Shown: positions 6,621-61,384 of the stretch, piece after piece
Layout: every line of letters starts with the position of its first letter
Position numbering within the stretch: position 1 is the first letter of the stretch
NCBI GenBank assembly: GCA_049324835.1
Contig: JBMOMT010000060.1
Location: 126,517 to 190,516 of the forward strand
Direction of reading: 5' to 3'
Length of the DNA stretch: 64,000 nucleotides
DNA from: Chloroflexota bacterium
GTDB taxonomy: Bacteria; Chloroflexota; Anaerolineae; CAYNKW01
The notes under the pieces: model-generated
The model's input: the letters and a program-made list of their open reading frames with translations, nothing else
Told to the model about the DNA's origin: nothing
Databases searched by the model: none
Program-made: the position numbers and the translations under genes

Positions 6621-9071
<2,451 letters not shown>

Positions 9072-9092: not shown

Positions 9093-10166
9093 ATGAGGCA
9101 TGGCGGCAGGCTGTTAGGGCTGACATTGGCGTTGGCGGCGATGCTGCTGTCGGCGTGTGGCCGTCGAGATCTGACAGCACAGACGGAAATCGACCTGGCG
9201 CAAATCTTGCCTGCCTCATTGCGCGCCAAGAGTATCCAACGCCTCGATCCGGCAGCCGGAATAACCCGCCAATGGCTGGTGCTGTATGAATATGACTTTA
9301 CCGGAGAGTTCAGCCCCATCGCCGGGGTGGTGTATCGCGCCGATCGGGGGGGCAGCAACCGGCCGCCGGTGGTTTACCCTTATCCCCTTCAATTGCCAGA
9401 TCGAGACTACCTGGGCACTGACCAGGTGACCGTGGAGCCGCGCGACGTGCTCACCGCCCAGCCTGGCGCCGAGCTGGTGGTGGAGAACAGAAACGCCGCC
9501 GGCTTTGTGACCGAGGCGGCCATCTTTCGCTGGCACGATCCTTTTGCCGATGAAGTCTGGCGCGATCATAACCTGGAAGAGCGTTATTACGAGTGTATGG
9601 GGTTCTTTCGCAGCAATGGCCAGGTCACGGTGGGGTCGGATCTGGTGACTGTCGAAGAGTGGGTGGGTGATCGCAGCCAACTGGCTCGTATTCACACCTA
9701 TAAACCGGATGAACGAGGTTCTTACCTTGTTGATGGCATCACGGTCAGAGCAGCAGAGCGCTCCTACATCAATTTTGCGTTTGGTCAGAGCACCGACATC
9801 CTGGCCTCGCCTTACCCGGAAAAGATCGTCCTCGCCTTTTACAATGCTCTGGGTGGCCCCACCGAAGCGCTCAAACCTTATCTGAGCCAGGCCGGGCAGG
9901 AATTACTCGGCGCCGGGCTTGTGGGCTACGGATGTGTCTGGCCGCCGAGCCAGGTGGCCAGAGCCAGCGTATACGAAATCTCTTATTACCCTGGTGTGGA
10001 AACTCAGGCCAGGCAGGATGAGGCTCGCCGGGCGCTGGTGGAACTCAAGGTGCAGTGTTGGTCTCGAACGGGCCAGGCTATGCCGGAGGAAGCCCACGTC
10101 GGGTGGTTCCTGGTTCGAGAAAAAGGGAACTGGAGGATGGATCAGGTGTATCGGCCGGCGCAATGA
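9093..10166 (+). CDS. hypothetical lipoprotein
   Basis: Signal peptide with lipobox (LALAAMLLSACGRRD). 357 aa with no recognisable catalytic motif. GGAGGGG RBS at 9079-9086. Confidence 0.5.
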   Translation: MRHGGRLLGLTLALAAMLLSACGRRDLTAQTEIDLAQILPASLRAKSIQRLDPAAGITRQWLVLYEYDFTGEFSPIAGVVYRADRGGSNRPPVVYPYPLQLPDRDYLGTDQVTVEPRDVLTAQPGAELVVENRNAAGFVTEAAIFRWHDPFADEVWRDHNLEERYYECMGFFRSNGQVTVGSDLVTVEEWVGDRSQLARIHTYKPDERGSYLVDGITVRAAERSYINFAFGQSTDILASPYPEKIVLAFYNALGGPTEALKPYLSQAGQELLGAGLVGYGCVWPPSQVARASVYEISYYPGVETQARQDEARRALVELKVQCWSRTGQAMPEEAHVGWFLVREKGNWRMDQVYRPAQ

Positions 10167-10173
10167 CCGGTTG

Positions 10174-10305
10174 GCGCCTGCTCACCCTCCCGCAGGTTTT
10201 TGTAGCGGCGCGGCATGCCGCGCCGCTTATACTGCTACAGTTTGCAGACTTGGCAGGTCCAGCCGGCCAGATTTTAGCCTGCGGGAGGGTAGGCTGAGCA
10301 GTTAC
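10174..10305. repeat. MITE-like repeat element, copy A (reverse orientation relative to copies B/C), flanked by 8-bp direct repeat ACCGGTTG
   Basis: Termini ..CTGCTCACCCTCCCGCAGG / CCTGCGGGAGGGTAGGCTGAGCAGTTAC match copies at 21368, 44119 and 61347. Direct repeat ACCGGTTG at 10166-10173 and 10306-10313. Internal palindrome GCGGCGCGGCATGCCGCGCCGC. Fills the whole gap between the lipoprotein gene and the rsfS 3' end. Confidence 0.75.
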
Positions 10306-10314
10306 ACCGGTTGT

Positions 10315-10677
10315 TTATTGCATCTTGACCACCACCGGTGCGTCCGACCAGAGAGCTTCTAGCTGATAATAGTCTCGCGTGGCGGGCGAGAAAATATGAA
10401 CGATCACCCCGCCATAGTCCATCAACATCCAGCCCGAGGCCGATGTGCCCTCGATGCGCAGAGGGATGATACCCAACTGTTTTTTCACCTGAAACCGGAT
10501 CTCGTCCACGATTGCCTGAATCTGCCGATCGCTCTCGCCACTGCAAATGACAAAGTAATCTCCCAGCAACGAGACCGGGCGAATGTCGAGTATGACCGTG
10601 TTCAAGCCCATCTTTTCCGCGATGGCGTCCAGGGCCAGGTGGGCCAATTCTTGCGAGTCTACCGTATTCAGTGACAT
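10315..10677 (-). CDS. rsfS: ribosomal silencing factor RsfS (Iojap family)
   Basis: MSLNTVDSQELAHLALDAIAEKMGLNTVILDIRPVSLLGDYFVICSGESDRQIQAIVDEI...VIVHIFSPATRDYYQLEALWSDAPV is the typical RsfS sequence. Start at internal ATG 10675-10677. The track extension is junk. Confidence 0.85.
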   Translation of the reverse strand: MSLNTVDSQELAHLALDAIAEKMGLNTVILDIRPVSLLGDYFVICSGESDRQIQAIVDEIRFQVKKQLGIIPLRIEGTSASGWMLMDYGGVIVHIFSPATRDYYQLEALWSDAPVVVKMQ

Positions 10678-10693
10678 CCTCCTAGAGTTTTTA

Positions 10694-12340
10694 TCACGTT
10701 CCCTGATTTTTGCCAGGCAGGTTGTTCCGTACAGCCGAACTATCTGCCTTGTTCCGCTCACAAATCTCCAACCGATCCCCTCCCCGGCGCTTGGCGGCGT
10801 ACATGGCCTGGTCGGCGGCTTCCAATAACAGGCCGGCATCCTGGGCATCGTGAGGCAAAACCGCCAGCCCGGCGCTGATGGTGACGGGCGGCAAACCCTG
10901 TTGAACCAGACTCTCTGAAACCGAGTGGCGTACCCAGGTTACCACGTCTCCGGCAACCGTTTGCGCTTCGATTTTTTCCCTTCCTGGCAGGATCATCACA
11001 AACTCGTCGCCACCGTAGCGCGCCACCACGCCCTGCCACTTTTCAGCGCAGAACTCGAGCGCCCGGGCCATGGTCGTCAGGACGGTATCACCCTGACGGT
11101 GGCCGTAGGTATCGTTAAAGTTTTTAAAGCTATCCACCTCGATCATCAGCAGCGCCAGGGGTTGGCTCTGTTGCTGGCTTTTTTCGACGTGCTGCCTCAG
11201 GGCCTGTTGAAAGAAACCGTGGTTATACAGGCTGGTCAGGCCGTCGTGGTCGGCCCGCCATTGCACCATCTTGTGAATCTGGGCGTTCTCGATGGCCAGC
11301 GTGGCCGAGTTGGCCAGCGCCGAGAGCACCTCCACGTCGGTCTCGGAGACGCTTTTGCGATCGTCGCAATCCACCACCAGCACCCCGATGGGGCCCGATG
11401 GCGTGCGTAACGCGACAGCCAGTTCCAACAGCGGTCGGGCGGCCATCATCTCCATGCCCTGCGAGCCGTCCACCACGAAAGGCCTGTCGGCCTTGAGCAT
11501 AGCCTCGAAAAGGCGATGATCAAAGTGCAATGGCGACAACTCTTCTTCAGCCTCGCTTCCTTTGCGGGGGCGAAAGCTGTAATACCGATCTGGCATGCCC
11601 TCTTGTTTCTGGCTCAGAAACAACGCCGCGCGTCGAAAATCCAGCACCTTGGTACACACCTGGACGATGCTCTGGAGCGTGTCGTCCGACTTGAGATCGT
11701 AGACGGCATTGTTCACCTCCTGGATGACGGCCAGTTCGGTGAGTCGCTGGGCCAGCCTGTGTTCGCGTTGTTGCCCCCCCCGCAACCAGGACTTGACCTG
11801 GTGGGCAAACTGGCCCAACAGCAGTCCGGCCAACAGCAATAGCAGGCTGGGGTAGAAAAGCTGGCTGCGCAGGTCGTCCGGCAGACCATAGGTCAACAGG
11901 AAAACCGACATCAACCCACTCCAGGCGACAAAGGCCAGCACCAACGTTCCTCGGAAGCCAAAGCGCATGGCGGCTGTCGCCACGACGGGCAGGTACAGGT
12001 GGGCGTAACGGTTGGCGGGGCCCTCCAGTGAGAGGACAAAGCCGCTGAGCAAAACCACATCGATCAACGCCGATCCATAACCCCACCAGGTGGGTAATCG
12101 CTGGCGTACGCGCAGGTCACGATCCAGCAGTAGATTGATCAGCCCGGTGGCGACCGCCATGCCCAGCAAGAGGCCAGGCGTGGCCACCAGTCCGGCAACC
12201 CAGGCCAGGATCGCCCCGCCCCCCAATGCCGCCCAGCGCAGATACCAGATGGTTCGCTCGACCTGGAGCGCGCTGCCAAAGAAAAAAGAGTCATCTTGTG
12301 CTGCGGGTTCCGCTCTCACCGGAGAAAAGCCGCTTTGCAT
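10694..12340 (-). CDS. membrane-anchored GAF-GGDEF diguanylate cyclase
   Basis: N-terminal TM helices, central GAF-like region, and C-terminal GGDEF domain with RYGGDEFVMILPG and an upstream RxxD-like I-site region. Confidence 0.8.
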   Translation of the reverse strand: MQSGFSPVRAEPAAQDDSFFFGSALQVERTIWYLRWAALGGGAILAWVAGLVATPGLLLGMAVATGLINLLLDRDLRVRQRLPTWWGYGSALIDVVLLSGFVLSLEGPANRYAHLYLPVVATAAMRFGFRGTLVLAFVAWSGLMSVFLLTYGLPDDLRSQLFYPSLLLLLAGLLLGQFAHQVKSWLRGGQQREHRLAQRLTELAVIQEVNNAVYDLKSDDTLQSIVQVCTKVLDFRRAALFLSQKQEGMPDRYYSFRPRKGSEAEEELSPLHFDHRLFEAMLKADRPFVVDGSQGMEMMAARPLLELAVALRTPSGPIGVLVVDCDDRKSVSETDVEVLSALANSATLAIENAQIHKMVQWRADHDGLTSLYNHGFFQQALRQHVEKSQQQSQPLALLMIEVDSFKNFNDTYGHRQGDTVLTTMARALEFCAEKWQGVVARYGGDEFVMILPGREKIEAQTVAGDVVTWVRHSVSESLVQQGLPPVTISAGLAVLPHDAQDAGLLLEAADQAMYAAKRRGGDRLEICERNKADSSAVRNNLPGKNQGT

Positions 12341-12345
12341 TGAAA

Positions 12346-12897
12346 CTATTCCCCCCTGTCGGCAACTGGCTGCTCCGATTTGCCCTCCATGATACCCCGA
12401 TCAGGGGGCAAAGTCAAGTCTTGCCAGCGGTTCATCATCTGCTTCATCTTTTCCCAGTGAGTGCCTCGCCAATAGACACGCTGGCACACCGGGCAGAGGA
12501 AAAATGCCTGCTGGGTGCGGTGGACGTGGCGCGGCACACGATTGCCCGCCTGTTCGTGGCTCAACGCCAACAGAGGCTCGTTGCACACCGGGCAGCGCGA
12601 AAAAGCGCCCTCCATCGGAGGCCCCACCGCCAGTATCACCTGCCGCACCTGGTCTTCCAGAGCCTGGCTCTGGATCAACAGCGCCTCCAGGCCGCGCCGG
12701 GCCGCGAGCTGACGATCGCGCGTGAGGAGCAAACGCCCTTCGGCGCGGGCGCGACGAACCAACACCCAGTCGTCGGCGCCGGTTTCCAGGGCTGTATCGT
12801 AGCCCAGAAGGCGCAACCAGCGGGCCAACCGGCCGAGCATGCCATCGGCCAACAATCTCACGTTTTGAACGGCTTTCAGGCTTGTGTTATTCATCAT
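12346..12897 (-). CDS. Mut7-C RNase domain protein (DUF82-like) with C-terminal zinc ribbon
   Basis: N-terminal block ADGMLGRLARWLRLLGYDT typical of the Mut7-C/PIN-like family. Two CxxC pairs (CPVCNE...CPVCQ). Confidence 0.55.
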   Translation of the reverse strand: MMNNTSLKAVQNVRLLADGMLGRLARWLRLLGYDTALETGADDWVLVRRARAEGRLLLTRDRQLAARRGLEALLIQSQALEDQVRQVILAVGPPMEGAFSRCPVCNEPLLALSHEQAGNRVPRHVHRTQQAFFLCPVCQRVYWRGTHWEKMKQMMNRWQDLTLPPDRGIMEGKSEQPVADRGE

Positions 12898-12910
12898 TCT
12901 CTGGTATGAT
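12882..12910 (+). promoter_or_regulatory. putative sigma-70 promoter with extended -10 (TTGTGT-17-TGGTATGAT) upstream of the Amt-like gene
   Basis: -35 at 12882-12887, spacer 17, TGG + TATGAT at 12902-12910. Lies in the divergent gap between the Mut7-C and Amt-like genes. Confidence 0.35.
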
Positions 12911-12983
12911 CCAGCACGTTTGGCGTGTTCTGGTTACCCAGCACGCCGCACACAACCAGCTCGTTTTGCCTGGCGGAGGAAAT

Positions 12984-14366
12984 ATGCCCGAAAGCAGTGA
13001 ATCTCTGGCGTTGACCATCGTGGGCCTGCTGGTTCCTCTGGGGTTGGCGCTGGTCGCCGTCGGTGGCGTGCCGGAAAAGCGAGCCGGGTCGGTGGCGCTC
13101 TCGGCGTTGGCGGCCATTGGCCTGGGCGGCTTTGCTTACCTGGCGCTGGGCTTTGCCCTCCAATTCGGTGGCCTGAGTTTGCATTACGATGTGCCGGGCC
13201 TGGAGAGGTTGGTGTGGGAGCGCCCCCTGCTCACCACCAGCAACCTGGCCCGAGTAGGCACGGCAGGTTATTTTCTGCAAGATGAGGCCAGCACACCGGC
13301 GGCCTATGGCCTATTTCTCTCCCAATTGCCCCTCGTCGCCACGGCCACCCTCATCCCGTTGGCCGCCTTACGAGGCCGGACGCGCGGCTGGGTACCCTTG
13401 TTGGGCGGCTTGCTCACCGCCGGTCTGCTCTACCCCGTGCTGGCCCATTGGGCCTGGTTCGACGATTGGCTGGCGCAATTGGGCCGGCTGATGGGCCTGG
13501 GCCACGGCTACGTCGATTTGGTCGGCGCGGGCGTGGTGCACTTGCTGGGCGGCACGGTGGCTCTGGCAGGATTGGTGGCCTTTCGACTGCAGAGCGAACG
13601 GCGCACAGCCACCGTTTCAGGTTACGATTCCCGCCAGAGATCGCTGCCCCGTATGCCACAACCCCAGAAATACGAGCCCTTGCCGCCTACGCACCAGCCG
13701 CTGCTGGCCTACACGGGCGCGCTGCTGGCGCTCGTTGGCTGGGCCGGACTGGCGCTACAGATGCCTCGCCTGGGTCAGCCTGCGATCTCGGCGGCCCAGG
13801 TGTTGCTCAATCTGATCCTCAGCGCCGCCGGGGCCGGTACGTTGTGCATGCTCTATACCTGGCTGGTGGCAGGCGCTCCTTCACCGCTGATGGCGGCCCG
13901 GGCTGTCGTTGGTGGATTGGTGACAGCCAGCGCCGGCGCAGCTTTTGTGCCACCCTGGGCATCGCTGGTCGCTGGCGCCGCTGTGGGTCTGTTCATCGTG
14001 CCGCTGCATTATTTACTCACCGTCGTGCTGCGCCTGGGCGACGAGACGGCTGCCGTGAGTGTCCATCTGCTGCCGGGCGCATGGGGCCTGGCTGTGGTCG
14101 GCCTGCTGGCCGATGGTCGCGCCGGTGCAGGCTGGAACAACACCGGCCTGCCGGGCCAGGGTGTGACCGGCGCGCTGGTCGCATCTGGCCTGACAGCCGA
14201 CTGGCCGGGTCAGTTGCAGGCGCAGTTGGCCGGCGCTGGCGTCATCTTTATCGTTGCTTTCGCGCTCGCTGGTGTGCTGTTTGCCCTCAGTGCGGGTTTT
14301 GTCGCCGCCTGGGAGGGCCGTCACCTGCCGACCGGCGCCCCGGTAGATTCTGAGGCAGTGGATTAA
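12984..14366 (+). CDS. ammonium transporter family protein (Amt/MEP/Rh-like, divergent)
   Basis: About 11 TM segments. Block HGYVDLVGAGVVHLLGGTVALAGLVAFRLQSER resembles the Amt signature (D-FAGG-VVH...G-AL-GA---G-R). Start at ATG 12984 preceded by GGAGGA. Family call is tentative. Confidence 0.5.
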   Translation: MPESSESLALTIVGLLVPLGLALVAVGGVPEKRAGSVALSALAAIGLGGFAYLALGFALQFGGLSLHYDVPGLERLVWERPLLTTSNLARVGTAGYFLQDEASTPAAYGLFLSQLPLVATATLIPLAALRGRTRGWVPLLGGLLTAGLLYPVLAHWAWFDDWLAQLGRLMGLGHGYVDLVGAGVVHLLGGTVALAGLVAFRLQSERRTATVSGYDSRQRSLPRMPQPQKYEPLPPTHQPLLAYTGALLALVGWAGLALQMPRLGQPAISAAQVLLNLILSAAGAGTLCMLYTWLVAGAPSPLMAARAVVGGLVTASAGAAFVPPWASLVAGAAVGLFIVPLHYLLTVVLRLGDETAAVSVHLLPGAWGLAVVGLLADGRAGAGWNNTGLPGQGVTGALVASGLTADWPGQLQAQLAGAGVIFIVAFALAGVLFALSAGFVAAWEGRHLPTGAPVDSEAVD

Positions 14367-14962
14367 CGATCGGCTCCCAGCGGCAGCCGGGCCAGGGTGC
14401 TATAGACTGCGCCCGTGGGGCGCAGATCGCTCCGCTTGAGGAAAACCGCGTCGGCGGTCATGCGGCCCAGCGTCTCTACTTGGCTGTTCGTAATCAGCTC
14501 CCCCAATTGCTGCTGATCGCTCCAACTGGCCGAGCGTTGCACCCGGCCCAGGGTGAGGTGAGGGCTGAAAGGGCGTGCCTCCGGCGGGTAGCCCAGTGCG
14601 GCCAACTGACGCCCCACGCTTTTCTGAAGGCGCTGCAGAGCGCCTGTGGCCTCCTCGACCCCCACCCATACCACCCGAGCGCGACGCACATTGGGAAAGC
14701 ACCCCAGGCCGTGCACCTGGAAAGCAAACGGCCCCACGTCGCGGCTGGCGGTTTCCAGCGCCCGTGAAATCTCGGCCACCCGCGACGCGGGTATATCACC
14801 CAGGAATTGGAGGGTGAGGTGAATGCCTTCTGGCCCCACCCAGCGCACCGACCGCGGTGGGGCCTGGCGTTGCAGCCGCTCCTGGAGTTGTGTCAGCCGA
14901 TTCAGGAGCTCGCGGTTCAACTCGATGGCCACAAAGGCGCGTATCTGTTCCACGGGCATCAT
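14363..14962 (-). CDS. thpR: RNA 2',3'-cyclic phosphodiesterase ThpR/LigT (2H phosphoesterase)
   Basis: Two H-x-T/S-x motifs (GIHLTLQFLGD and SPHLTLGRV), about 190 aa. 4-nt overlap with the upstream amidohydrolase gene. Confidence 0.75.
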   Translation of the reverse strand: MMPVEQIRAFVAIELNRELLNRLTQLQERLQRQAPPRSVRWVGPEGIHLTLQFLGDIPASRVAEISRALETASRDVGPFAFQVHGLGCFPNVRRARVVWVGVEEATGALQRLQKSVGRQLAALGYPPEARPFSPHLTLGRVQRSASWSDQQQLGELITNSQVETLGRMTADAVFLKRSDLRPTGAVYSTLARLPLGADR

Positions 14963-15816
14963 CCTTTCAGACCCAGCAGGCGCGCGGCGTTGGCGCCCTC
15001 GATCTTGGCCAGTGTGGATCGGGGCAAACCGGCCAGCACCAGGCGGGCGTGCATCTTGCGCTGGTCGATGAGGGGATAGTCGGTAGCGAAAAGAATTTTG
15101 TCCGGCATGAGTGTACCGGCCAGAAAAAAGATCTTGTCGCGGTAGAGATAGAGTGAAGCTGCCGTGTCGTAATAGACGTTGCGGAATTGGCGCATCACCT
15201 CCGGCATCAGTTCGTAGAACGGCAGGCCGCCGCCCCAGTGGGCGCAGACGAGGATGGCCTCCGGGAACAATTCGACGAAACGGTAGACGGTTCCCGGATC
15301 GACAGTGCCCTTGCCAGGGTAGAGATGGCCCACCGGCTCGCTGGTGTGGCTCAAGATGAGCATGCGGTGCGCCGTCGTCAGCTCGACGATGGGCCGCATG
15401 GCGCGTTCGTCGTCCAGGGCAAAACCCTGACCGTTCGGCATCAGCTCGCCCAGGCCGCGCAGGCCGCCTGCCGCGCAGCGTTCCAATTCTTTTACTGCCA
15501 GTTCTGTGTAGGCCGGGTTGACAATGCCAAAACCAACCATACGATCCGGATAACGACGCACGGCTTCCATCACGTAATCGTTGGACTCGCGCAGCAGCCC
15601 CGGATCGCGCCAGCCGAAGCCAAAGGTCACCGAAACGTCCACACCGGAGCGATCCATCTCTTCGATGAGCTCGTCGGCGGTGATGAGCCGGGCGTTGGGA
15701 TTGCCGTAAAGCTCCTCGAACCAGATATCGCGGCTGAGGAATTTCTCCCGGTTCTGAATGATGGTCGGTGGTGTGATGTGGGTGTGAAAGTCAATGATCA
15801 TCGTGCGGCCTCCCAC
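14959..15816 (-). CDS. amidohydrolase-2 family metal-dependent hydrolase (TIM barrel)
   Basis: MIIDFHTHITPP N-terminal HxH motif plus downstream His/Asp ligands. Confidence 0.7.
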   Translation of the reverse strand: MGGRTMIIDFHTHITPPTIIQNREKFLSRDIWFEELYGNPNARLITADELIEEMDRSGVDVSVTFGFGWRDPGLLRESNDYVMEAVRRYPDRMVGFGIVNPAYTELAVKELERCAAGGLRGLGELMPNGQGFALDDERAMRPIVELTTAHRMLILSHTSEPVGHLYPGKGTVDPGTVYRFVELFPEAILVCAHWGGGLPFYELMPEVMRQFRNVYYDTAASLYLYRDKIFFLAGTLMPDKILFATDYPLIDQRKMHARLVLAGLPRSTLAKIEGANAARLLGLKG

Positions 15817-15841
15817 CGCAATCGAACAGAATGGTTTCCAA

Positions 15842-17701
15842 TCATGGCTGTTCCACTCGCACCTGGCCGTTTGTGATCACGAGCAACAGTTCCTCGCCAG
15901 GGTCGTTCACCTCACATTCCAACGCCAGACCGGCCGAGCCTGCTGGGGCCACACTAAAGGCGTTCAGGTAGAGGTGATAGGCGCCGTTGGGCAGTTCACC
16001 CAGCGCCATTCCCCTGTCTCCCGGGCCAAAATCTCGCCGACGCAGCGGAACAAGATGCGATGGTTCGGCCAGGGCGAATTCGGTGTTGTTCCAGCCGTAC
16101 ACGGTCAGACCGTCCTCCCCGGTCAACCCGATCTGGTAAAAACCCAGCGGCGGCGAGGCTGACGGCTCAAAGGTTCCGGGAATGACCGGCGATGGGGTCC
16201 AGGTCAACTGCACCCCTGCCGCGACCACCTCGGCTCGGACGTTGCTGGGCGGGTCTGGCACGCTGCCGCCGACATACACATCGCTGGCGGTCATGCCCGG
16301 CACAGGCACACCGTCGGCGTCGAGCAGGGTAAAGGTATAGACGCCGCCCGCCAGGGGCATCGCCTGGATGTAACTGGAGAAGCGCTGGTCCCATTCAAAG
16401 AGGTCGGCGTAACGCGGCAGGGTGATCGTCTGGCCGGCGGGTGTCTGCACCACCACCTGCATACGCAGGCCGGCTCTGACGTTGGCATCAAAGACCGTCT
16501 CGGCGCTGCGTGAGGCCGCGCCTGCCGGGCCGAACAACCGGCACCAGACGTCGGCCGAGTCCCAGGTGACGTCGCGTACCCTTGGCAGTTCACCCGGCGC
16601 GATCGAGTAAACGGCTTGCACGGCGTCCAGCTCGGCGCCGGCGCTGCCCGTTTCTGCCTGTTCGGTGCTGCCGTCGTCTGTGATGCGAATGAATTTGACG
16701 TAACGTAAACCGGCGTCAGACAGGTTCAGACTGCCCGGCTCACCGCTGTTGCCCAGCGACTGAAACGTCAGCCCATCGACGCTCACCTCGACGATGACCG
16801 ACTCGTCGTTGTCCGGACCGCCAAACAGGCGGATGTCGGGGCCAGGGCCGTCGACGGCCAGGTTGTTGGAGAAGGCCAGGGTGATGTGCCCGCCGATGCC
16901 CAGGTTCACCAGACCGCTCAGTTCTGGCTCGGTGGCCCAATCGGGTGCGCCCAGGGCGGCAGAAGGGTCGACATAATCGACCCAACCCGGGCTGCCCTGC
17001 TGATAGTCGATCACCTGATCGGCAAAGGCATCGGCCACCGGCTCTGGGGTTGGGCTGGGTTTGGGCGGCGCCATGTGGGGCATGTCACCCTCGGTGGCCC
17101 ACAGGGTGCGTTCGTCGTCGCTCATCGGTTGCGAGGGGGCGGGGGGCTGGCCGTCTACCACCGTCGATTGCTGGCCGGCAGAGACGGTCACCGTTTGTTC
17201 CTGGGCGGTCAACTCGACCGCGCCCTCGGCCACAGAGACGAGTAGCGTGCCATCGCTCACCGCCACGCAAAAGTGTGTGTCGCGTACGGCGGCCACAGCC
17301 GCGCCGGTGTGCACGGCGAACTCGTGGGGCTGGTCGGTGGTCAGGTTGATCCACAGCCGCCCTGCCTCCAAGACGAGGGTCGTCAGCAGGTTGCCCCGGC
17401 GCGTGGTGCTTTTTTCGATGGTGAACACCGTCTCGGCGGAGAGGCGCACCACGCCTTCCAACAACTCCAGTCGCGCAAAAGATTCGGCCCCGGTGCGCAC
17501 CTGGCCGCCACTGTGCACGGCCAGGCCCACGGCAGCAGGTTGCCAGTCGTCGTTGGGGCGCGGGTGGGTATCTACCTGCCCGATGGTTTCTATCACCGTT
17601 GCCGGATGTTCCTCGCCCGCCGATGAAACCAGGACAACGGCAGTGACTATCAGGGCCAGCATCACTATCAGAACACCGATGATCCAGATTTTTTTGCTCA
17701 T
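15842..17701 (-). CDS. FecR-domain protein, membrane-anchored, large extracytoplasmic C-terminal region (paralog of 17742..18590)
   Basis: N-terminal TM anchor (KIWIIGVLIVMLALIVTAVVLV). FecR-like beta-sandwich block VGLAVHSGGQVRTGAESFARLELLEGVVRLSAETVF...DQPHEFAV. About 60 percent identical over about 190 aa to the next gene. Start at internal ATG 17699-17701. Confidence 0.7.
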   Translation of the reverse strand: MSKKIWIIGVLIVMLALIVTAVVLVSSAGEEHPATVIETIGQVDTHPRPNDDWQPAAVGLAVHSGGQVRTGAESFARLELLEGVVRLSAETVFTIEKSTTRRGNLLTTLVLEAGRLWINLTTDQPHEFAVHTGAAVAAVRDTHFCVAVSDGTLLVSVAEGAVELTAQEQTVTVSAGQQSTVVDGQPPAPSQPMSDDERTLWATEGDMPHMAPPKPSPTPEPVADAFADQVIDYQQGSPGWVDYVDPSAALGAPDWATEPELSGLVNLGIGGHITLAFSNNLAVDGPGPDIRLFGGPDNDESVIVEVSVDGLTFQSLGNSGEPGSLNLSDAGLRYVKFIRITDDGSTEQAETGSAGAELDAVQAVYSIAPGELPRVRDVTWDSADVWCRLFGPAGAASRSAETVFDANVRAGLRMQVVVQTPAGQTITLPRYADLFEWDQRFSSYIQAMPLAGGVYTFTLLDADGVPVPGMTASDVYVGGSVPDPPSNVRAEVVAAGVQLTWTPSPVIPGTFEPSASPPLGFYQIGLTGEDGLTVYGWNNTEFALAEPSHLVPLRRRDFGPGDRGMALGELPNGAYHLYLNAFSVAPAGSAGLALECEVNDPGEELLLVITNGQVRVEQP

Positions 17702-17741
17702 GACATTTTTCCTTTTGCGGCAAACCAACTATCATGGCGGA

Positions 17742-18590
17742 TTATGGCCCCTCAATACGAATCTGACTGGGTGTGGCCGATGGCGTGTGTGTCACTGTGG
17801 ACGCGCGTGTGGCTGTGGCTGTCACGATCGGGTCAGCCGTCGGGTCTTGGGTGATCGGAGGGGTGGGGACAAGGGGGTGTGTGGTAGAGCCGCCCGGCGT
17901 GGGCGGTATGATCGGTGGGGTAATTGGCACCGGTGTGACGGTTGGCGTGGGTGTGGACGGGGCCATTTTGGGCATCTGCCCCTCAGTGGCCCACTGGGTA
18001 CGCTCGTCGTCGCTCATCGGTTCCGGCAGCGATGGCATCTGACCGTCCACGGCGGTAGATTGCTCTCCCGCCTTCACCGTGACCATTCTGCCCTGCGCCG
18101 TCAACGTGACGCTACCCTCAGCCACAGAGACGCGCGTCGCGCCGTCGAATGCCGCCACGCTAAAGCGTGTATCACGCACGGCTGCGATGGCCCCGTTGGT
18201 CTGGACGGCGAATTCGTGAGGCTGATCGGTCGTCAGATTGATCCACAGGCGGCCTTTTTCCAGGTCAAGCGTGGTCCAGAGTTTGCCCTGGCGTGTGGCG
18301 CTTTCTTTGACGGTGAACACACAATCGGCTGCCAGGCGCACCCGGCCTTCTGGCAGTTCCAGGCTCGCCCAAGAATCCGCTCCCGTGCGCAGTTGACCGC
18401 CGCCAAACAGTTTCATGCCCACGCGGGCGGGCTGCCAGGCGTCTTTGGGACGCGGGTGGGCATCGACTTGGTTCACTGCTTCCACCACCGTTGCCGGCTG
18501 GGCCTCGGCGGCGGGTGCTCGTAACAAAAGCGCCACCCCCATCGCTGCCAGCAATGTCAGACCAGCGGCCATCCACAATCCACGTTTCAT
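17742..18590 (-). CDS. FecR-domain protein with C-terminal Pro/Thr-rich tail (paralog of 15842..17701)
   Basis: Signal/TM (LWMAAGLTLLAAMGVALLL), FecR block VGMKLFGGGQLRTGADSWASLELPEGRVRLAADCVF...DQPHEFAV, shared motif MSDDERTQWATEG. Start at internal ATG 18588-18590, overlapping the cyclase stop. Confidence 0.7.
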   Translation of the reverse strand: MKRGLWMAAGLTLLAAMGVALLLRAPAAEAQPATVVEAVNQVDAHPRPKDAWQPARVGMKLFGGGQLRTGADSWASLELPEGRVRLAADCVFTVKESATRQGKLWTTLDLEKGRLWINLTTDQPHEFAVQTNGAIAAVRDTRFSVAAFDGATRVSVAEGSVTLTAQGRMVTVKAGEQSTAVDGQMPSLPEPMSDDERTQWATEGQMPKMAPSTPTPTVTPVPITPPIIPPTPGGSTTHPLVPTPPITQDPTADPIVTATATRASTVTHTPSATPSQIRIEGP

Positions 18591-18591
18591 C

Positions 18592-20445
18592 TCAGCCCTC
18601 CGGCTCCGATAACCCCAACACGCGGTAGACGCGGATCGGCTCGGCCTTGCCTCTGGCCTGAAAGGGCAGCACGTCGGCATCGACCTGCACCTGCCGCTGA
18701 ACCTGCTCGTAGGTGGCCTGGGTGATCAACACCGTGGCGCAGGGCTGCTCGTCGTCTCCGTCGCGTTCCAGGCGGCGGGCCAGCACTTCTTTGGTATAGT
18801 CCTGCACCCGCGCGGCGGTGTTGACGGCATCGCCGATGACGGTATACTCGACGCGACGGCCCCGGCCCACGATGCCGTCCATCAGCCGCCCGCTGTGAAT
18901 GCCGATGCCCACACGCAGGGGGTGCTCGTCACGCAGGGGCCAGATGGCGTTGAGTTCGGGCAACAGGGCCGCCATGCGCAGCGCGGCCCGCACCGCCAGC
19001 AGGGCGTGATCTGGCGCTGGCTCTGGCGCGCCAAAGAGCACCAACAGACCATCACCTAACATTTTATCCAACACACCCTGCTCGGCAAACGCAGCCTCGA
19101 CCATGGCGTCGGCATAGTGGTTGAGGAAACGGAGCACCTCGCCGCCGCGCCCCTGGCTGGTGAGGGTCTCGGTGGCCGAGGTAAAACCACGGATATCGGA
19201 AAAGAGGACGGTCGCTTCCACCTCCGGTCGGTCTTCGGTCACCAGCTCTTCCCAACTGTCGAGCACCACCGCCAGCCGCTCCGGGGCCATGAAACTCTGG
19301 AAGCGATCTCGCAGGCGGCGGCGCTCCTGCTCTTCGATGAGCACCCGTTCCACCAGGCCGCCGGCCATCGTCAGCGTGGCCAGGCCCACCGGCGATACGA
19401 CCGACAGCCACAGATCGGCCTGGGCAAACAACAAAAAGGCCGTCACCAGGTAGAGCAACAGCCCGCCCCCCACGCCAGCCGTGGCCTGCAGGGGTGAGAG
19501 ACGCCAAAAGGCGGTTGCTGTCAGGGCCACGGCCAACAGACTGATGGCCGCGTCGAGCCAGCCCGGCGCGTGGGTGATGGGATCGTTGTTGAGCAGGGTG
19601 GCGATGACATTGGCGTGCACTTCGACGCCGGGTGTCAGGCCGGCCTTGTCAAAAGGGGTGACGTGCAGGTCTTGCTCCAAAAAGGTGGTAAAACCAATGA
19701 GCACAACCTGATCCGTAAAAGTGGCGGCAGCTATCTCGCCGTTGAGCACCTGGTACATGGGCACCGTGCGAAAGGTATTGCCCCCGCCCCGAAAGTTGAT
19801 GAGCAGATCGGTCGTGTTGTGAGGTGCCATGGCCGATGTCTCCCCGCCATGGGCCTGGGCCACCGCCAGGCCAAACGCCGTGTACCAGGTGTCGTTGTGG
19901 AAGCGGTGCAGCGCCACCCGCCGCACCACGCCGTCGGTATCGAGGGCCACGTTGGCCAGCCCCACGCCGTTCACCGACTGAATCAGCGTTTCTAACGGCG
20001 CGGTGTAACGATCGTAGGCGTAGCCAGGCCCTTCCTGGTGTTCGATGAGACTGGCCAACACTGTCGGTGGGGCTTGCTGCAGGCTCTGGGCCAGGGCATC
20101 GTCGCCGCCTGGGTCGCTGCCGGGGTGTGTCCAGGCCACGTCTACTCCGATGACCGATGGCCCTCCGGCAGCGATGGCGTCGATCAGGCGGGCGTATTCG
20201 GCGCGCGGCCAGGTGCGCAGGTTCTGGTTGAGCACGGTAAAACTCTCGTCGTTGATGGCGACGATCACGATGGGCGCGTCGGCCGGGCGCTCACCGCGCA
20301 GCCGGAAGCGTAGATCGTAGATGGTCAGCTCGAGGGTTTGGGGAATGCCAAAGCCGTTGAGCAGCAGAACCAGGACCAGCCCTGCGACCAGCATGAGCGC
20401 CAATCGGTGGGAGCGGGTGAGTTCGGATCGGAGTTGCTTTAGCAT
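18592..20445 (-). CDS. CHASE2 sensor domain adenylate/guanylate cyclase (class III)
   Basis: N-terminal TM, large extracytoplasmic CHASE2-like region, a TM cluster, and a class III cyclase domain (VLFSDIRGFTSATETL...MLGDGLLVLFGAP...GIGIHSG). Start at internal ATG 20443-20445. Confidence 0.8.
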   Translation of the reverse strand: MLKQLRSELTRSHRLALMLVAGLVLVLLLNGFGIPQTLELTIYDLRFRLRGERPADAPIVIVAINDESFTVLNQNLRTWPRAEYARLIDAIAAGGPSVIGVDVAWTHPGSDPGGDDALAQSLQQAPPTVLASLIEHQEGPGYAYDRYTAPLETLIQSVNGVGLANVALDTDGVVRRVALHRFHNDTWYTAFGLAVAQAHGGETSAMAPHNTTDLLINFRGGGNTFRTVPMYQVLNGEIAAATFTDQVVLIGFTTFLEQDLHVTPFDKAGLTPGVEVHANVIATLLNNDPITHAPGWLDAAISLLAVALTATAFWRLSPLQATAGVGGGLLLYLVTAFLLFAQADLWLSVVSPVGLATLTMAGGLVERVLIEEQERRRLRDRFQSFMAPERLAVVLDSWEELVTEDRPEVEATVLFSDIRGFTSATETLTSQGRGGEVLRFLNHYADAMVEAAFAEQGVLDKMLGDGLLVLFGAPEPAPDHALLAVRAALRMAALLPELNAIWPLRDEHPLRVGIGIHSGRLMDGIVGRGRRVEYTVIGDAVNTAARVQDYTKEVLARRLERDGDDEQPCATVLITQATYEQVQRQVQVDADVLPFQARGKAEPIRVYRVLGLSEPEG

Positions 20446-20535
20446 GGAGCCCTCGCTTTCCGAGTGGGGGAGACCTGAATCCATTATAATGGATTTGTAA
20501 GGTTTTGTGAAGTGCCCCTCTGTGACGGCTGCGTT

Positions 20536-21351
20536 TCAGTTTGGGGCCGGGTTGTCATTCTCTGCCGGGTTTTCAATGGGCAGGCTCAACGGTCGCGGTT
20601 CGGTTGGATCGCTTGTTTGGTGGGTTCGCTCCACGGCTCGCCAGAGATTGATCTTGACCTTGGGATAACTCTTTTCTACCGTACGCAAGAGCTGTGCCAT
20701 CAGAGCCCGGCGTGAGGCCTGGCCGTTCACACAGGCAGCCGGCGGCGGGGGAAAGCCGCAAACAGCCGCCAGACGCACCAGCTCTTTCTCCGGTACATAG
20801 ATCAGCGGGCGAATCAGGGTCAGTCGATGGTCAAAAAAGGACACACGGGGGCGCATCGACTCCAGTCTGCCCTGGTAAAACAGGTTGAGCAGGGTGGTCT
20901 GGGCGGCGTCGTCGGCGTGATGGCCCAGAGCCACCTTGTTGCAGCCCATGCGGTCGGCGGCCAGGAATAGCGCTTTGCGCCGCCGCCAGGCACAGTGAAA
21001 ACAAGGCGACCGTTCCCGTCCTTCAGGCAGACTATCCACCTCTTGCATAGGGGTCAGGATGTATTCTACCGCCTCACTTTGCAGCCAGGCCTCCAGCGAG
21101 GTGGTATTCTGACCCGACCCGCAGGGCGCATCGGCAGCCGGTATGACGTGCACGGCCACCAAGTCGTACCGTTCGCGGGCCACACATTGCCGCGCGCCGA
21201 GCAGGTGTAACAACGAGAGGCTGTCTTTGCCGCCCGATACAGCCACAGCAATTCGATCCCCCTCGGCGATGAGGTTGTGTTGCCGGATGGCCTGGTTGAC
21301 CTTTTTGAGCAGGAAAAAGGTTTGTCGGTTATGCGTGGGTTGTTTGGCCAT
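20536..21351 (-). CDS. ttcA: tRNA 2-thiocytidine synthetase TtcA-like PP-loop ATPase
   Basis: PP-loop SGGKDS (VAVSGGKDSLSLLHLL), the TtcA-type block ALGHHADDAAQTTLLNLFYQG, and CxxC (SPCFHC). Confidence 0.7.
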   Translation of the reverse strand: MAKQPTHNRQTFFLLKKVNQAIRQHNLIAEGDRIAVAVSGGKDSLSLLHLLGARQCVARERYDLVAVHVIPAADAPCGSGQNTTSLEAWLQSEAVEYILTPMQEVDSLPEGRERSPCFHCAWRRRKALFLAADRMGCNKVALGHHADDAAQTTLLNLFYQGRLESMRPRVSFFDHRLTLIRPLIYVPEKELVRLAAVCGFPPPPAACVNGQASRRALMAQLLRTVEKSYPKVKINLWRAVERTHQTSDPTEPRPLSLPIENPAENDNPAPN

Positions 21352-21367
21352 GGTCGAATCTCTTTTT

Positions 21368-21487
21368 GTAACTGCTCAGCCTACCCGCCCGCAGGCTAAA
21401 ATCTGGCCGACTGGACCCGGCAGATCTGCAAACTGTGGCAGCAGGGACACGGCCCCTACAAGAACCTGTGAGAGGGTGAGCAGTTAT
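21368..21487. repeat. MITE-like repeat element, copy B (shorter; internal hairpin lost), flanked by TCTTTTT direct repeats
   Basis: GTAACTGCTCAGCCTACCCGCCCGCAGGCTAAAAT...CCTGTGAGAGGGTGAGCAGTTAT. Flanks tctttttGTAAC...CAGTTAtcttttt. Located in the ttcA/LysM divergent gap. Confidence 0.7.
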
Positions 21488-21567
21488 CTTTTTTTGATCG
21501 TATTTGCCCCAAGCGAATCTGCGTTGCGCGGCGTCGATTATACCACACTTTGCGTTTTTGCTTTTGT

Positions 21568-39919: not shown

Positions 39920-39968
39920 ACGCCTCACCTTTGACGTTTGACGTTTGACGTTTGACGCCCCACGCCTC
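39920..39968 (-). repeat. heptanucleotide tandem array 1 (ACGCCTC ACCTTTG ACGTTTG x3 ACGCCCC ACGCCTC; CGTCAAA units on the coding strand) immediately 5' of the MacB-like ATPase start
   Basis: Seven 7-bp units. The core is three perfect ACGTTTG, with four consecutive TTGACGT units read in the other phase, at 39931-39958. Flanked by direct repeats CACGCCTCAC at 39919-39928 and 39961-39970. Confidence 0.85.
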
Positions 39969-42544: not shown

Positions 42545-42607
42545 CCACCTCACGTTTGACGTTTGACGTTTGACGTTTGACGTTTCACGCTTCACGTTTC
42601 ACGCTGT
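42545..42607 (-). repeat. heptanucleotide tandem array 2 (ACGTTTG x4 then ACGTTTC ACGCTTC ACGTTTC ACGCTGT) immediately 5' of the DUF4177 start; distal units encode the stomatin C-terminus
   Basis: Four perfect ACGTTTG units at 42552-42579 plus four degenerate units to 42607. The last units overlap the stomatin stop (..SVKREA*). Same downstream context (CGTGAGG..GGAG..ATG) as array 1. Confidence 0.85.
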
Positions 42608-44013: not shown

Positions 44014-44053
44014 ATTGTACTAGTATTATAGTACAATTTTGGGAAAATGTCAA
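44014..44053 (-). promoter_or_regulatory. consensus sigma-70 promoter (TTGACA-17-TATAAT) overlapped by a 9-6-9 palindrome ATTGTACTA-N6-TAGTACAAT: promoter and likely operator of the GntR-headed unit
   Basis: On the minus strand TTGACA (plus 44048-44053), 17-nt spacer, TATAAT (plus 44025-44030). Palindrome at 44014-44037 covers the -10 and transcription start. The region is sharply AT-rich in a GC-rich genome. Confidence 0.65.
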
Positions 44054-44118
44054 GGCCCAAAAAAGTCATCGAGTCTTTGCCGTTGCAGATTGGCTGCTCT
44101 ATGCTATAATGGACAAAC

Positions 44119-44267
44119 GTAACTGCTCAGCCTACCCTCCCGCAGGCTAAAATCGTTTACCCTGTCCCACAATCTAGTCGACTGGACGCTGGCGAATCGG
44201 CAAATTGCGGCAGTGGGCACGGCATTGCCGTGCCCCTACAAGAGCCTGCGGGAGGGTGAGCAGTTAC
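44119..44267. repeat. MITE-like repeat element, copy C (most complete), flanked by 8-bp target-site duplication GGACAAAC
   Basis: Termini GTAACTGCTCAGCCTACCCTCCCGCAGGC ... GCCTGCGGGAGGGTGAGCAGTTAC (terminal inverted repeats). Direct repeat GGACAAAC at 44111-44118 and 44268-44275. Internal hairpin GGGCACGGCATTGCCGTGCCC. Confidence 0.8.
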
Positions 44268-44353
44268 GGACAAACATGGAACCAGGTGTTGGTTTTGACC
44301 GTCTATGAAACAGGTATCACACTTTTGCTGCCATGACATTCAAGGAGGAGAAC

Positions 44354-45310
44354 ATGAAACAGCTACGTCCCCCCAGCCCTTTGCCTGTTCTGTTGATCCT
44401 GTTGGCGGCAGCCCTGATCGTCGCCGGCTGCGCCAAATCGCCCTCAGAGAGGACCGAACAGGTTGTGCGGGAGATGGTCAGAGAGACGGTGGTCGTCGCC
44501 GGCACGCCGCAAGTGGCGGAAAAGGAAGGCGTGCCCGCGCCGACCATGCCACCCCAGGCAGGAGACGGCGTGGCTCCGCTGCCGGTGGCCTACCGCGTCA
44601 ACCGTATGATCATCAAAAACGCCGAACTGCGCCTGCAAGTGACCGACACCGACCGCGCCATCGATCAGGCGACCCAGATCGCCGCCGACACTTTTGGTTA
44701 CATCCTCTCTGCTCGCACCTGGTACCAGGCCGATTATAAATACGCTACTGTCACCATCGGTGTGCCGGTGGACGAGTTCGAGAACGCCGTGCGCCGCTTG
44801 CGGGCGCTGGCCCTCAAGGTGCTGGACGAAAACGCCTCCGGCAGCGACGTCACCGACCAGTACGTCGATCTGGAGTCGCAACTGCGCAACCTGGAGGCCA
44901 CTGAAGCCCGTATCCGCTCTTTCCTCGACAAGGCCACCACCGTCGAAGAGGCGTTGCTGGTCAACCAAAAGCTGGCCGACATTACCGCTCAGATCGAACA
45001 GATCAAGGGTCAGATGAATTATCTCCAGGATCGGGCGGCCTACTCGACCATCACCGTTCACCTGGAACCGGATGTTCCCACACCCACCCCCACACCCACA
45101 CCCACCCCCACACCCACGCCCACGCCAGAGGCCTGGCGTCCGGCGGAGACCTTGGGCAGCGCCACGGGTGTACTGGGTGCCATCCTGCGGATTCTGGGCG
45201 ATCTGATCATCTGGGTCACGGTGGTGTTGGGGCCGTTCATTCTGCTGCTGGCCTTCATCATCTGGATTGGCGTCCGTCTGCGGCGGCGCTGGCGCAAACC
45301 AGCCGCGTAG
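44354..45310 (+). CDS. DUF4349-like lipoprotein with coiled-coil region, (PT)10 linker and C-terminal TM anchor
   Basis: RBS AAGGAGGAG then ATG 44354. Lipobox LIVAGCAKS. Coiled-coil block ([21 protein letters not shown]...[28 protein letters not shown]). C-terminal TM. Confidence 0.5.
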   Translation: [318 protein letters not shown]

Positions 45311-45329: not shown

Positions 45330-45370
45330 GACCCGCCCGCAGGTTGAGCCAACCAACCCGCGGGCGGGTC
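45330..45370. repeat. GC-rich perfect hairpin (GACCCGCCCGCAGG-N13-CCCGCGGGCGGGTC) between convergent genes; arms match the MITE terminal core
   Basis: 11-bp perfect stem plus 2 further pairs. Arms ACCCGCCCGCAGG equal the terminal core of MITE copy B (TACCCGCCCGCAGGCT). No T-tract. May act as a bidirectional stop/RNA-stabilising hairpin for the DUF4349 (+) and GT4 (-) genes. Confidence 0.6.
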
Positions 45371-61218: not shown

Positions 61219-61346
61219 CCCCGGCCCCCTCACTGCCTGCTGCGTCAAGTGCAGGGCCAAACACGAGATAAAAGACCCCCGGCCAGTTTTCACCGCCAAT
61301 GACAGCCCGGCCACACGCGGCTCTTGCCTGTCTGCCGCGCTGCGAT

Positions 61347-61384
61347 GTTCCCCGAACCTGCGGGAGGGTAGGCTGAGCAGTTAC
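61347..61384. repeat. MITE-like repeat, copy D terminal arm (CCTGCGGGAGGGTAGGCTGAGCAGTTAC); upstream body (about 61214-61346) appears degenerate
   Basis: Identical to the right arm of copy A. A possible degenerate left terminus GTAAC at 61214-61218 overlaps the manC stop codon. Confidence 0.55.

What the first reader, a model, noticed from the sequence alone, without database searches (positions are those of the whole stretch)
44119..44267. Undescribed MITE-like repeat family with terminal inverted repeats and 8-bp target-site duplications (5 loci in 64 kb)
A roughly 120-150 bp element recurs at five places. Copies are at 10174..10305 (reverse orientation), 21368..21487, 44119..44267 and 61347..61384, plus a mini-version at 45330..45370. 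The complete copy C has terminal inverted repeats GTAACTGCTCA...TGAGCAGTTAC that extend inward to (GCCTA)CCCTCCCGCAGGC / GCCTGCGGGAGGG. Copy C is flanked by a perfect 8-bp direct repeat GGACAAAC. Copy A is flanked by ACCGGTTG on both sides, and copy B by TCTTTTT. Three different flanking duplications is the hallmark of transposase-mediated insertion, so this is not a REP-like sequence conserved by function alone. The copies also share an internal GC hairpin whose sequence differs but whose pairing is preserved. Copy C has GGGCACGGCATTGCCGTGCCC and copy A has GCGGCGCGGCATGCCGCGCCGC. These compensatory changes imply selection on structure. All copies sit in short intergenic gaps at gene ends or between divergent genes, and no transposase is present in the window. 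The density suggests many copies genome-wide.
Basis: seen in the sequence. Interest (0 to 1): 0.72.

Follow-up and report, generated by a model that had tools for sequence, protein, structure and literature searches.

The report
New MITE family in Anaerolineae bacteria
The repeats are real copies of a small, non-coding "hitch-hiker" transposon (a MITE, typically 121 bp) that is common in Anaerolineae bacteria and appears undescribed, but it is an ordinary kind of selfish DNA and not a new mechanism.

Summary
A profile search finds four family members in the window: three complete copies (A 10174-10305, B 21368-21487, C 44119-44267) and one half copy (D 61329-61384). The "mini" hairpin at 45330-45370 is not a detectable member.

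The ends are two-part inverted repeats, GTAACTGCTCA followed by CCCTCCCGCAGG. One end carries an extra 5-nt spacer. The flanking 8-bp duplications are real. Across 115 unique copies from at least 18 Anaerolineae/Chloroflexota MAGs and metagenomes, 47 have perfect and 25 have 7/8 duplications, all with different sequences. An offset control gave none at 7/8 or better. Length peaks at 121-122 bp.

This is a MITE moved in trans by a transposase that makes 8-bp staggered cuts. GTAA termini plus 8-bp duplications match the IS66 family, which I confirmed on six enterobacterial IS66 elements. No autonomous parent and no IS66 gene turned up in 1.57 Mb of copy-bearing DNA, so the IS66 assignment is inference.

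The internal hairpin is specific to the window's subfamily and is lost in copy B. The family shows no conserved internal structure and no orientation bias. There was no match in Rfam, plasmids or the searchable literature. It is a new member of a known kind, of modest interest.

The parts
44119..44267 (+). MITE copy C, complete, 149 bp. It is the longest copy and carries a ~20-nt insertion relative to A and B.
   Evidence: nhmmer E=1.5e-16; DNA fold z=-8.5
44119..44146 (+). Copy C 'long' terminal repeat: outer box GTAACTGCTCA, 5-nt spacer GCCTA, inner box CCCTCCCGCAGG
44245..44267 (+). Copy C 'short' terminal repeat: CCTGCGGGAGGG-TGAGCAGTTAC, with no spacer
44111..44118 (.). Left target-site duplication of C (GGACAAAC)
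44268..44275 (.). Right target-site duplication of C (GGACAAAC), 8/8
44215..44235 (+). Internal GC hairpin of C (GGGCACGGCATTGCCGTGCCC). Specific to this subfamily and not a family feature.
21368..21487 (+). MITE copy B, complete, 120 bp. The internal hairpin is lost and the short end is degraded (CCTGTGAGAGGG...GTTAT).
   Evidence: (E=2e-16)
21360..21367 (.). Left target-site duplication of B (CTCTTTTT)
21488..21495 (.). Right target-site duplication of B (CTTTTTTT), 7/8
10174..10305 (-). MITE copy A, complete, 132 bp. The long end is at 10278-10305. The short end at 10174-10196 has its tip mutated (GCGC where GTAA is expected).
   Evidence: (E=4e-18)
10166..10173 (.). Target-site duplication of A (ACCGGTTG). 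Its first base is the last base of the stop codon of gene 9093-10166.
10306..10313 (.). Target-site duplication of A (ACCGGTTG), 8/8
10205..10226 (.). Internal GC hairpin of A (GCGGCGCGGCATGCCGCGCCGC)
61329..61384 (-). Copy D: half element with the long end plus ~30 nt of interior (model positions 1-58). The partner end is missing. It lies in the 378-nt gap between the ManC-like and RpiR-like genes.
   Evidence: (E=1e-9)
45330..45370 (.). It resembles only the inner box and its family membership is not shown.
   Evidence: (no hit)

Best explanation
These are copies of a non-autonomous DNA transposon (MITE) family that lives in Anaerolineae-class Chloroflexota. A canonical copy is 121-122 bp and encodes nothing.

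Anatomy. Each end is a two-part inverted repeat: an 11-nt outer box GTAACTGCTCA and a 12-nt inner box CCCTCCCGCAGG. At one end the two boxes are separated by a 4-7-nt spacer. That spacer began as a tandem duplication of GCTCA.

Mechanism. A transposase supplied in trans binds the two ends, cuts the target with an 8-bp stagger and joins the element. Repair then leaves an 8-bp direct repeat on each side. The insertions and duplications are shown. The transposase is inferred. GTAA termini combined with 8-bp duplications are the signature of the IS66 family (TnpC DDE transposase), so an IS66-type element is the most likely mobiliser. I put this sub-claim at about 0.5.

Evolution. The ends stay nearly invariant because only copies with intact ends can still move. 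The ~70-nt interior drifts freely in sequence but keeps its length. Surviving copies are intergenic because insertions into genes are removed by selection.
For: - Terminal repeats and copies in the window.
- Target-site duplications across 115 unique copies: 47 perfect, 25 at 7/8, 47 different sequences, no strong target motif. Offset control: none at 7/8 or better.
- Length: mode 121 (44 copies) and 122 (19 copies).
- Asymmetric ends in 107 of 115 copies.
A further 120 metagenome stretches, also at the limit.
- At least 21, 16 and 14 loci in single MAGs.
- Short-read contigs of the window's own organism end inside copies A, B and C.
- 104 of 107 copies are intergenic, with no orientation bias (20 vs 12, p=0.22).
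- No conserved internal structure.
- IS66 link. The literature gives IS66 terminal repeats of 20-30 bp starting GTAAGCG, with 8-bp direct repeats (PMC11946415). I saw this directly on annotated elements: ISEc22, ISKpn24, ISEc8 and ISEc23 have GTAAGCGT ends with perfect 8-bp duplications, are 2.44-2.53 kb long, and have two-part repeats with a variable middle. A second IS66 copy in pAA-EA11 has GTAAGCG...CGCTTAC flanked by AGTTGAAT on both sides.
Against: No autonomous element was found.
- No end pair of IS size with a matching duplication.
- No recurrent long interior behind unpaired ends.
- No recurrent transposase-like protein family near the copies.
- No IS66 TnpA, TnpB or TnpC by tblastn or by profile HMM in 1.57 Mb of copy-bearing DNA or in the window.

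The element's tip matches the IS66 heptamer GTAAGCG at only 5 of 7 positions (GTAACTG). No orthologous empty site could be recovered. The nearest relatives of the TtcA gene next to copy B are 74% identical at most and have different synteny. Copy number in the source genome is extrapolated, not counted.
Confidence: 0.88

Rival explanations
1. It is a MITE, but it is mobilised by a transposase of another family that also makes 8-bp duplications (for example IS1595, ISL3, IS256, IS6, ISAs1 or IS1) or by an uncharacterised family, and not by IS66.
For: No IS66 gene was found near any copy. The tip is GTAACTG, not GTAAGCG. Several IS families make 8-bp duplications (own knowledge of the ISfinder family table).
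Against: Of the families I know with 8-bp duplications, only IS66 has ends that begin with GTAA. The others begin GG..., CAGGG and so on (own knowledge). The two-part repeat with a variable middle resembles the IS66 repeats I read.
Confidence: 0.35
2. It is a REP/BIME-like palindromic element spread by a RAYT-type (IS200/IS605-like) enzyme or kept for a host function, and not a classical cut-and-paste or copy-and-paste MITE.
For: The copies are intergenic, palindromic, numerous and GC-rich stem-loops.
Against: REPs are 20-40 nt and make no target-site duplications (own knowledge). Here 72 of 114 copies have 8-bp duplications matching at 7/8 or better, and the unit is 121 bp with defined termini.
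Confidence: 0.03
3. It is primarily a functional structured RNA or DNA element (terminator, 5'-UTR regulator, small RNA) whose copies are kept by selection on structure.
For: The whole element folds into a very stable hairpin (z=-8.5 and -6.9 for C and A). A and C carry compensated internal hairpins. Copies often lie within 10-40 nt of gene ends. Two MAGs have a copy just upstream of a glgC-like gene. Copy C lies between a promoter-like -10 and its gene.
Against: - No covariation: the 12 consensus pairs are all invariant terminal-repeat pairs.
- Interiors fold no better than shuffles.
- No orientation bias relative to transcription.
- No promoter or terminator consensus inside the copies.
- No Rfam match, even at E<=1.
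- The hairpin is deleted in copy B.

Individual copies may still have been co-opted.
Confidence: 0.05

Closest known systems
IS66-family insertion sequences (IS66, ISEc8, ISCro1, ISEc22, ISEc23, ISKpn24)
   Same: The terminal inverted repeats begin with GTAA, are ~20-30 bp long and are two-part with a variable middle. They make 8-bp target-site duplications.
   Different: The IS66 elements are 2.4-2.5 kb and encode TnpA, TnpB and TnpC. The element here is 121 bp and non-coding. Its tip is GTAACTG, not GTAAGCG. The host is Chloroflexota, not mostly Proteobacteria. No parent with these ends was found.
Bacterial MITEs such as Correia elements (Neisseria), RUP (Streptococcus pneumoniae), ERIC/IRU (Enterobacteria) and MITEAba12 (Acinetobacter, PMC6382973)
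   Same: They are 100-150 bp, non-coding, with terminal inverted repeats and target-site duplications. They occur as many intergenic copies, fold into a long hairpin and depend on a transposase supplied in trans.
   Different: There is no sequence similarity that I could detect in the collections searched. The duplication length differs: 8 bp here, against TA for Correia and RUP and 9 bp for MITEAba12 (own knowledge and the PMC6382973 abstract). The family spans a whole bacterial class, with termini nearly invariant and interiors diverged to 37% identity.
REP/BIME elements with RAYT transposases
   Same: They are abundant intergenic palindromes in a GC-rich genome.
   Different: REPs are much shorter and leave no target-site duplications (own knowledge). 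The copies here do leave them.

Membership tests
MITE (non-autonomous transposon with terminal inverted repeats) | Short (under ~300 bp) with no coding capacity | tested here: met
   Copies are 57-154 bp, with a mode of 121. ORFs that cross them are read-through artefacts.
MITE (non-autonomous transposon with terminal inverted repeats) | Terminal inverted repeats | tested here: met
   The ends are 23 and 28 nt and nearly invariant across 89 aligned copies.
MITE (non-autonomous transposon with terminal inverted repeats) | Target-site duplications of fixed length whose sequence differs between copies | tested here: met
   47 perfect and 25 at 7/8 among 114 copies, with 47 distinct sequences. The control had none at 7/8 or better.
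MITE (non-autonomous transposon with terminal inverted repeats) | Many dispersed copies per genome | tested here: met
   4 loci in 64 kb. Short-read assemblies break inside the copies.
MITE (non-autonomous transposon with terminal inverted repeats) | A cognate autonomous element with the same ends | tested here: inconclusive
   None found in 1.57 Mb around the copies. Multi-copy IS elements are often missing from short-read MAGs, and whole genomes could not be searched.
MITE (non-autonomous transposon with terminal inverted repeats) | Empty orthologous sites or insertion polymorphism | tested here: inconclusive
   The nearest relatives of the TtcA gene next to copy B are 74% identical at most and have different gene order.
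IS66 family (as the source of the MITE) | Terminal repeats start with GTAA(GCG) | tested here: inconclusive
   GTAA is present in nearly all copies. The full heptamer matches at only 5 of 7 positions (GTAACTG against GTAAGCG).
IS66 family (as the source of the MITE) | 8-bp target-site duplication | tested here: met
   for the MITE. Searches show 8-bp duplications on five annotated IS66-family copies.
IS66 family (as the source of the MITE) | A parent that encodes TnpA, TnpB and TnpC and shares the termini | tested here: inconclusive
   No hit by tblastn or by profile HMM (best E=0.27). The search space was limited to the window and the fetched loci.
REP/BIME | A 20-40-nt palindromic unit without target-site duplication | tested here: not met
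   The unit is 121 bp and 8-bp duplications are present.
Any Rfam RNA family | A covariance-model match | tested here: not met
   0 matches at gathering thresholds over the whole window. 0 matches at E<=1 on copy C.

The most novel reading that the evidence does not exclude
This is an old MITE superfamily found across the class Anaerolineae. It would be the first clearly IS66-type MITE lineage. It has persisted through host speciation with its termini and its ~121-bp length under selection while the interior diverged to near-random. It may now be moved by a low-copy, divergent or domesticated transposase instead of a conventional multi-copy IS with matching ends. Some copies may have been co-opted as 5'-UTR or gene-end hairpins.
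Probability: 0.2. Interest if true: 0.5.

Novelty: new member of a known kind. Interest (0 to 1): 0.3.

Why it matters
Practical value:
- The family is a diagnostic, high-copy repeat of Anaerolineae and Thermoflexales genomes.
- It visibly fragments short-read assemblies. Contigs of the source organism end inside copies A, B and C.
- It should be masked or annotated in MAG pipelines.

Biological value:
- MITEs attributed to IS66 are rare in the literature I could search, so this family would extend the known range of that IS family into Chloroflexota.
- It offers a natural data set, with invariant ends, a drifting interior and a fixed length, for asking what a transposase needs from a very short substrate.

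It does not reveal a new mechanism.

Tried and rejected
1. Autonomous parent. None of these searches found one:
- IS-sized pairs of ends, using the full ends or the outer box only with a matching duplication. The only hits were 164-298-bp composites of two small elements.
- Two distant end pairs, L051 (3.9 kb) and L001 (4.0 kb). They enclose ordinary genes: CBM11/GDSL, a 2-hydroxyacid dehydrogenase and a cyclase-TPR protein.
- Clustering of sequence behind unpaired ends. It gave only duplicate contigs and neighbouring MITEs.
- Clustering of all ORFs near copies. It gave signalling and glycosyltransferase families, not transposases.
- IS66 TnpA/B/C by tblastn and by profile HMM. A weak TnpA hit in L095 lies in an amino-acid permease ORF.
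- tblastn of TnpC against plasmids. It was saturated by Enterobacteriaceae and uninformative.
- A viral-contig scan for the ends: 0 hits.

2. More copies of the window's own subfamily. A metagenome scan for CCCNCCCGCAGGCTAAAATC returned 0 hits.

3. Empty sites. Homologues of the TtcA gene next to copy B were too distant.

4. Conserved internal RNA or DNA structure. Rejected.

5. Strand or orientation bias relative to genes. Not significant.

6. Promoter or terminator consensus inside the copies. None.

7. Prior description. There was no relevant paper for the end sequences or for Anaerolineae plus MITE. IS66-plus-MITE papers mention the two only in separate contexts.

8. A shared 12-mer, CAGGTGTATCGG, upstream of copy A and of the mini hairpin. 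I dismissed it because about 100 such 12-mer coincidences are expected in 64 kb.

Full report
**What is in the window.** A repeat search links four of them. Aligned, they give one element with a "long" end GTAACTGCTCA-GCCTA-CCCTCCCGCAGG and a "short" end CCTGCGGGAGGG-TGAGCAGTTAC. The inner-box 13-mer is enriched, with 13 matches against 3.5 expected and none of 100 shuffles reaching 13.

A profile built from 89 family members finds exactly four loci in the 64 kb:
- A, 10174-10305, minus strand
- B, 21368-21487
- C, 44119-44267
- D, 61329-61384, a half copy with the long end and about 30 nt of interior

The "mini" hairpin at 45330-45370 is not detected even at E<=10. It lacks the outer box, and its one-arm resemblance to the inner box is at chance level, so I do not count it. 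A, B and C are 86-89% identical over aligned columns.

**Flanking duplications.** C is flanked by GGACAAAC on both sides and A by ACCGGTTG on both sides, both perfect. B has CTCTTTTT and CTTTTTTT, 7 of 8.

To judge chance I scanned public genomes and metagenomes for the ends. The metagenome scan returned 120 stretches, also at the limit. After removing contigs present in both collections there are 115 unique small elements. Of 114 with readable flanks, 47 have a perfect 8-bp duplication and 25 have 7/8. The 47 perfect ones all differ in sequence and show no strong target motif. A control comparing the left flank with sequence 20 nt further to the right gave none at 7/8 or better. The duplications are therefore real insertion scars.

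**Anatomy of the family.**
- Length is sharply peaked: 44 copies of 121 bp and 19 of 122 bp. There are also a few minis (57-91 bp) and some longer copies.
- 107 of 115 copies have one short and one long end.
- The spacer at the long end is 4-7 nt. In one large subfamily it reads GCTCA-GCTCA, a tandem duplication of part of the outer box.
- The first ~30 and last ~27 positions are at least 90% conserved.
- The ~70-nt interior differs between subfamilies. In-register identity is 37% against 26.5% for a shifted control, yet interior length is 69-72 nt in 74 of 89 copies. The subfamilies therefore descend from one ~121-bp ancestor, and length appears constrained.
- Each genome tends to carry its own subfamily.

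**Structure.** Every copy folds into a long terminal stem with a 5-nt bulge. The consensus fold of 89 copies contains only 12 pairs. All lie in the terminal repeats, all are invariant, and none covaries. The interiors fold no better than dinucleotide shuffles, with a mean z of -0.5.

A and C differ there by two compensated pairs and one extra pair. B has lost one arm and the loop through a 10-nt deletion. A scan for more copies of this subfamily found none. The claim of selection on that hairpin therefore rests on two sequences and is contradicted by the third. Hairpin-templated repair of a palindrome would explain the compensation equally well.

**Context.** The window is ordinary core chromosome. 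It encodes Lon, GyrA, Ffh, S16, RimM, DprA, RsfS, acetyl-CoA carboxyltransferase, ABC transporters and similar genes, with no transposase or integrase.
- A fills the gap between convergent genes. Its duplication starts at the last base of a stop codon.
- B lies between the divergent TtcA-like and LysM genes.
- C lies between a GntR gene and a 318-aa gene.
- D lies between two co-directional genes.

Family-wide, 104 of 107 oriented copies are intergenic by a crude gene call. Orientation relative to transcription is not biased (20 vs 12, p=0.22). No promoter or terminator consensus lies inside the copies.

The window comes from an NCBI MAG labelled Chloroflexota bacterium, on a 227-kb contig. 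Short-read contigs of the same organism end inside copies A, B and C. That is what a high-copy repeat does to an assembly.

**Mechanism.** The evidence fits a non-autonomous transposon moved in trans. The supporting features are fixed ends, 8-bp duplications of unrelated sequence, many dispersed copies, subfamilies specific to each lineage, and survival only between genes.

For the transposase I rely on the family signature. A paper citing TnCentral states that IS66 elements have 20-30-bp terminal repeats starting GTAAGCG and make 8-bp direct repeats (PMC11946415). I checked this on annotated elements. ISEc22, ISKpn24, ISEc8 and ISEc23 have GTAAGCGT ends and perfect 8-bp duplications. A second IS66-family copy on plasmid pAA-EA11 has GTAAGCG...CGCTTAC flanked by AGTTGAAT on both sides. 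Their repeats are also two-part: a conserved tip, a variable ~10 nt, then a conserved CCGT box. The MITE shares the GTAA tip, the 8-bp duplication and the two-part layout. It matches the heptamer at only 5 of 7 positions. Among IS families that I know to give 8-bp duplications, only IS66 starts with GTAA. This point rests on my own knowledge of the ISfinder table.

**What is missing.** I could not find the autonomous partner.
- No pair of ends of IS size has a matching duplication.
- The two distant pairs enclose ordinary genes.
- Sequence behind unpaired ends is not recurrent.
- No transposase-like family recurs near the copies.
- Neither tblastn nor profile HMMs built from six enterobacterial IS66 elements detect TnpA, TnpB or TnpC in 1.57 Mb of copy-bearing DNA or in the window.

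This is weak negative evidence. Multi-copy 2.5-kb IS elements are commonly lost from short-read MAGs, and I could only search the loci fetched around MITE ends. An orthologous empty site could not be recovered either, because the closest available relatives are too distant.

**Comparison with what is known and novelty.**
- No Rfam family matches.
- No plasmid record matches and no viral contig matches.
- The searchable literature holds neither the end sequences in a relevant context nor any paper pairing Anaerolineae with MITEs.

The element works like Correia, RUP, ERIC or MITEAba12 elements but shares no detectable sequence with anything searched. It differs from them in duplication length. 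REP/BIME membership is excluded by the duplications and the unit size.

I file it as a new member of a known kind: a new MITE family, probably derived from IS66. It is real and apparently undescribed but mechanistically ordinary, so interest is modest. The less ordinary aspects deserve a follow-up in closed genomes. They are the spread across a whole class with invariant termini, the apparent length constraint, the fixed end asymmetry and the absent parent.

Noticed in passing
window 39930-39957 and 42552-42603; also L002 and L036 next to MITE copies: Heptamer tandem repeats (TTTGACG/ACGTTTG, 4 and 7.4 copies) sit in short gaps at the ends of ABC-transporter genes. Similar CACGTTT runs lie beside MITE copies in two other MAG loci.
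   Followed up: no
L026 ~1731-1900; L140 ~727-857; L030 2540-2703: A second MITE-like family has related ends GTAACTGCCTACC...GGTAGGCAAGTTAC around a long G/C-rich palindrome. In L030 and L140 it abuts a 121-bp MITE and the same 8-bp target sequence occurs three times. This suggests repeated insertion at one site or next to an existing end.
   Followed up: partly
window 44102-44118 and 44025-44053: Copy C begins 8 nt after an extended -10-like TGcTATAAT on the + strand. The whole 149-bp hairpin is therefore probably in the 5' UTR of gene 44354-45310. A perfect TTGACA-17-TATAAT on the minus strand serves the divergent GntR gene.
   Followed up: partly
L025 ~6786-6899 and L057 2702-2824: Two different MAGs each carry a MITE copy just upstream of a glgC-like (glucose-1-phosphate adenylyltransferase) gene, in the same orientation, 15 and 53 nt before the start codon. 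The genes are 66% identical at the DNA level. This could be an old retained insertion, a hotspot or coincidence.
   Followed up: partly
L078 (starts at window ~44240) and L203 (spans window ~10279-21417): Short-read Logan contigs (SRR32167788) of the same organism begin and end inside MITE copies A, B and C. The repeat fragments assemblies of this genome.
   Followed up: yes
family alignment A2 (89 copies): The interior is 69-72 nt in 74 of 89 copies, although subfamilies share only 37% in-register identity (control 26.5%). The long end's spacer is a tandem duplication of GCTCA that is fixed in 107 of 115 copies.
   Followed up: partly
window 20536-21351 (minus strand): The TtcA-like ORF is 271 aa here, but homologues are 238-254 aa and cover only 86-91% of it. 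The true start is probably ~25-30 codons downstream of the ATG at 21351, which lies 16 nt from copy B.
   Followed up: no
window 45077-45123: A CCCACA hexamer repeat (7.8 copies) lies inside the 3' part of gene 44354-45310.
   Followed up: no
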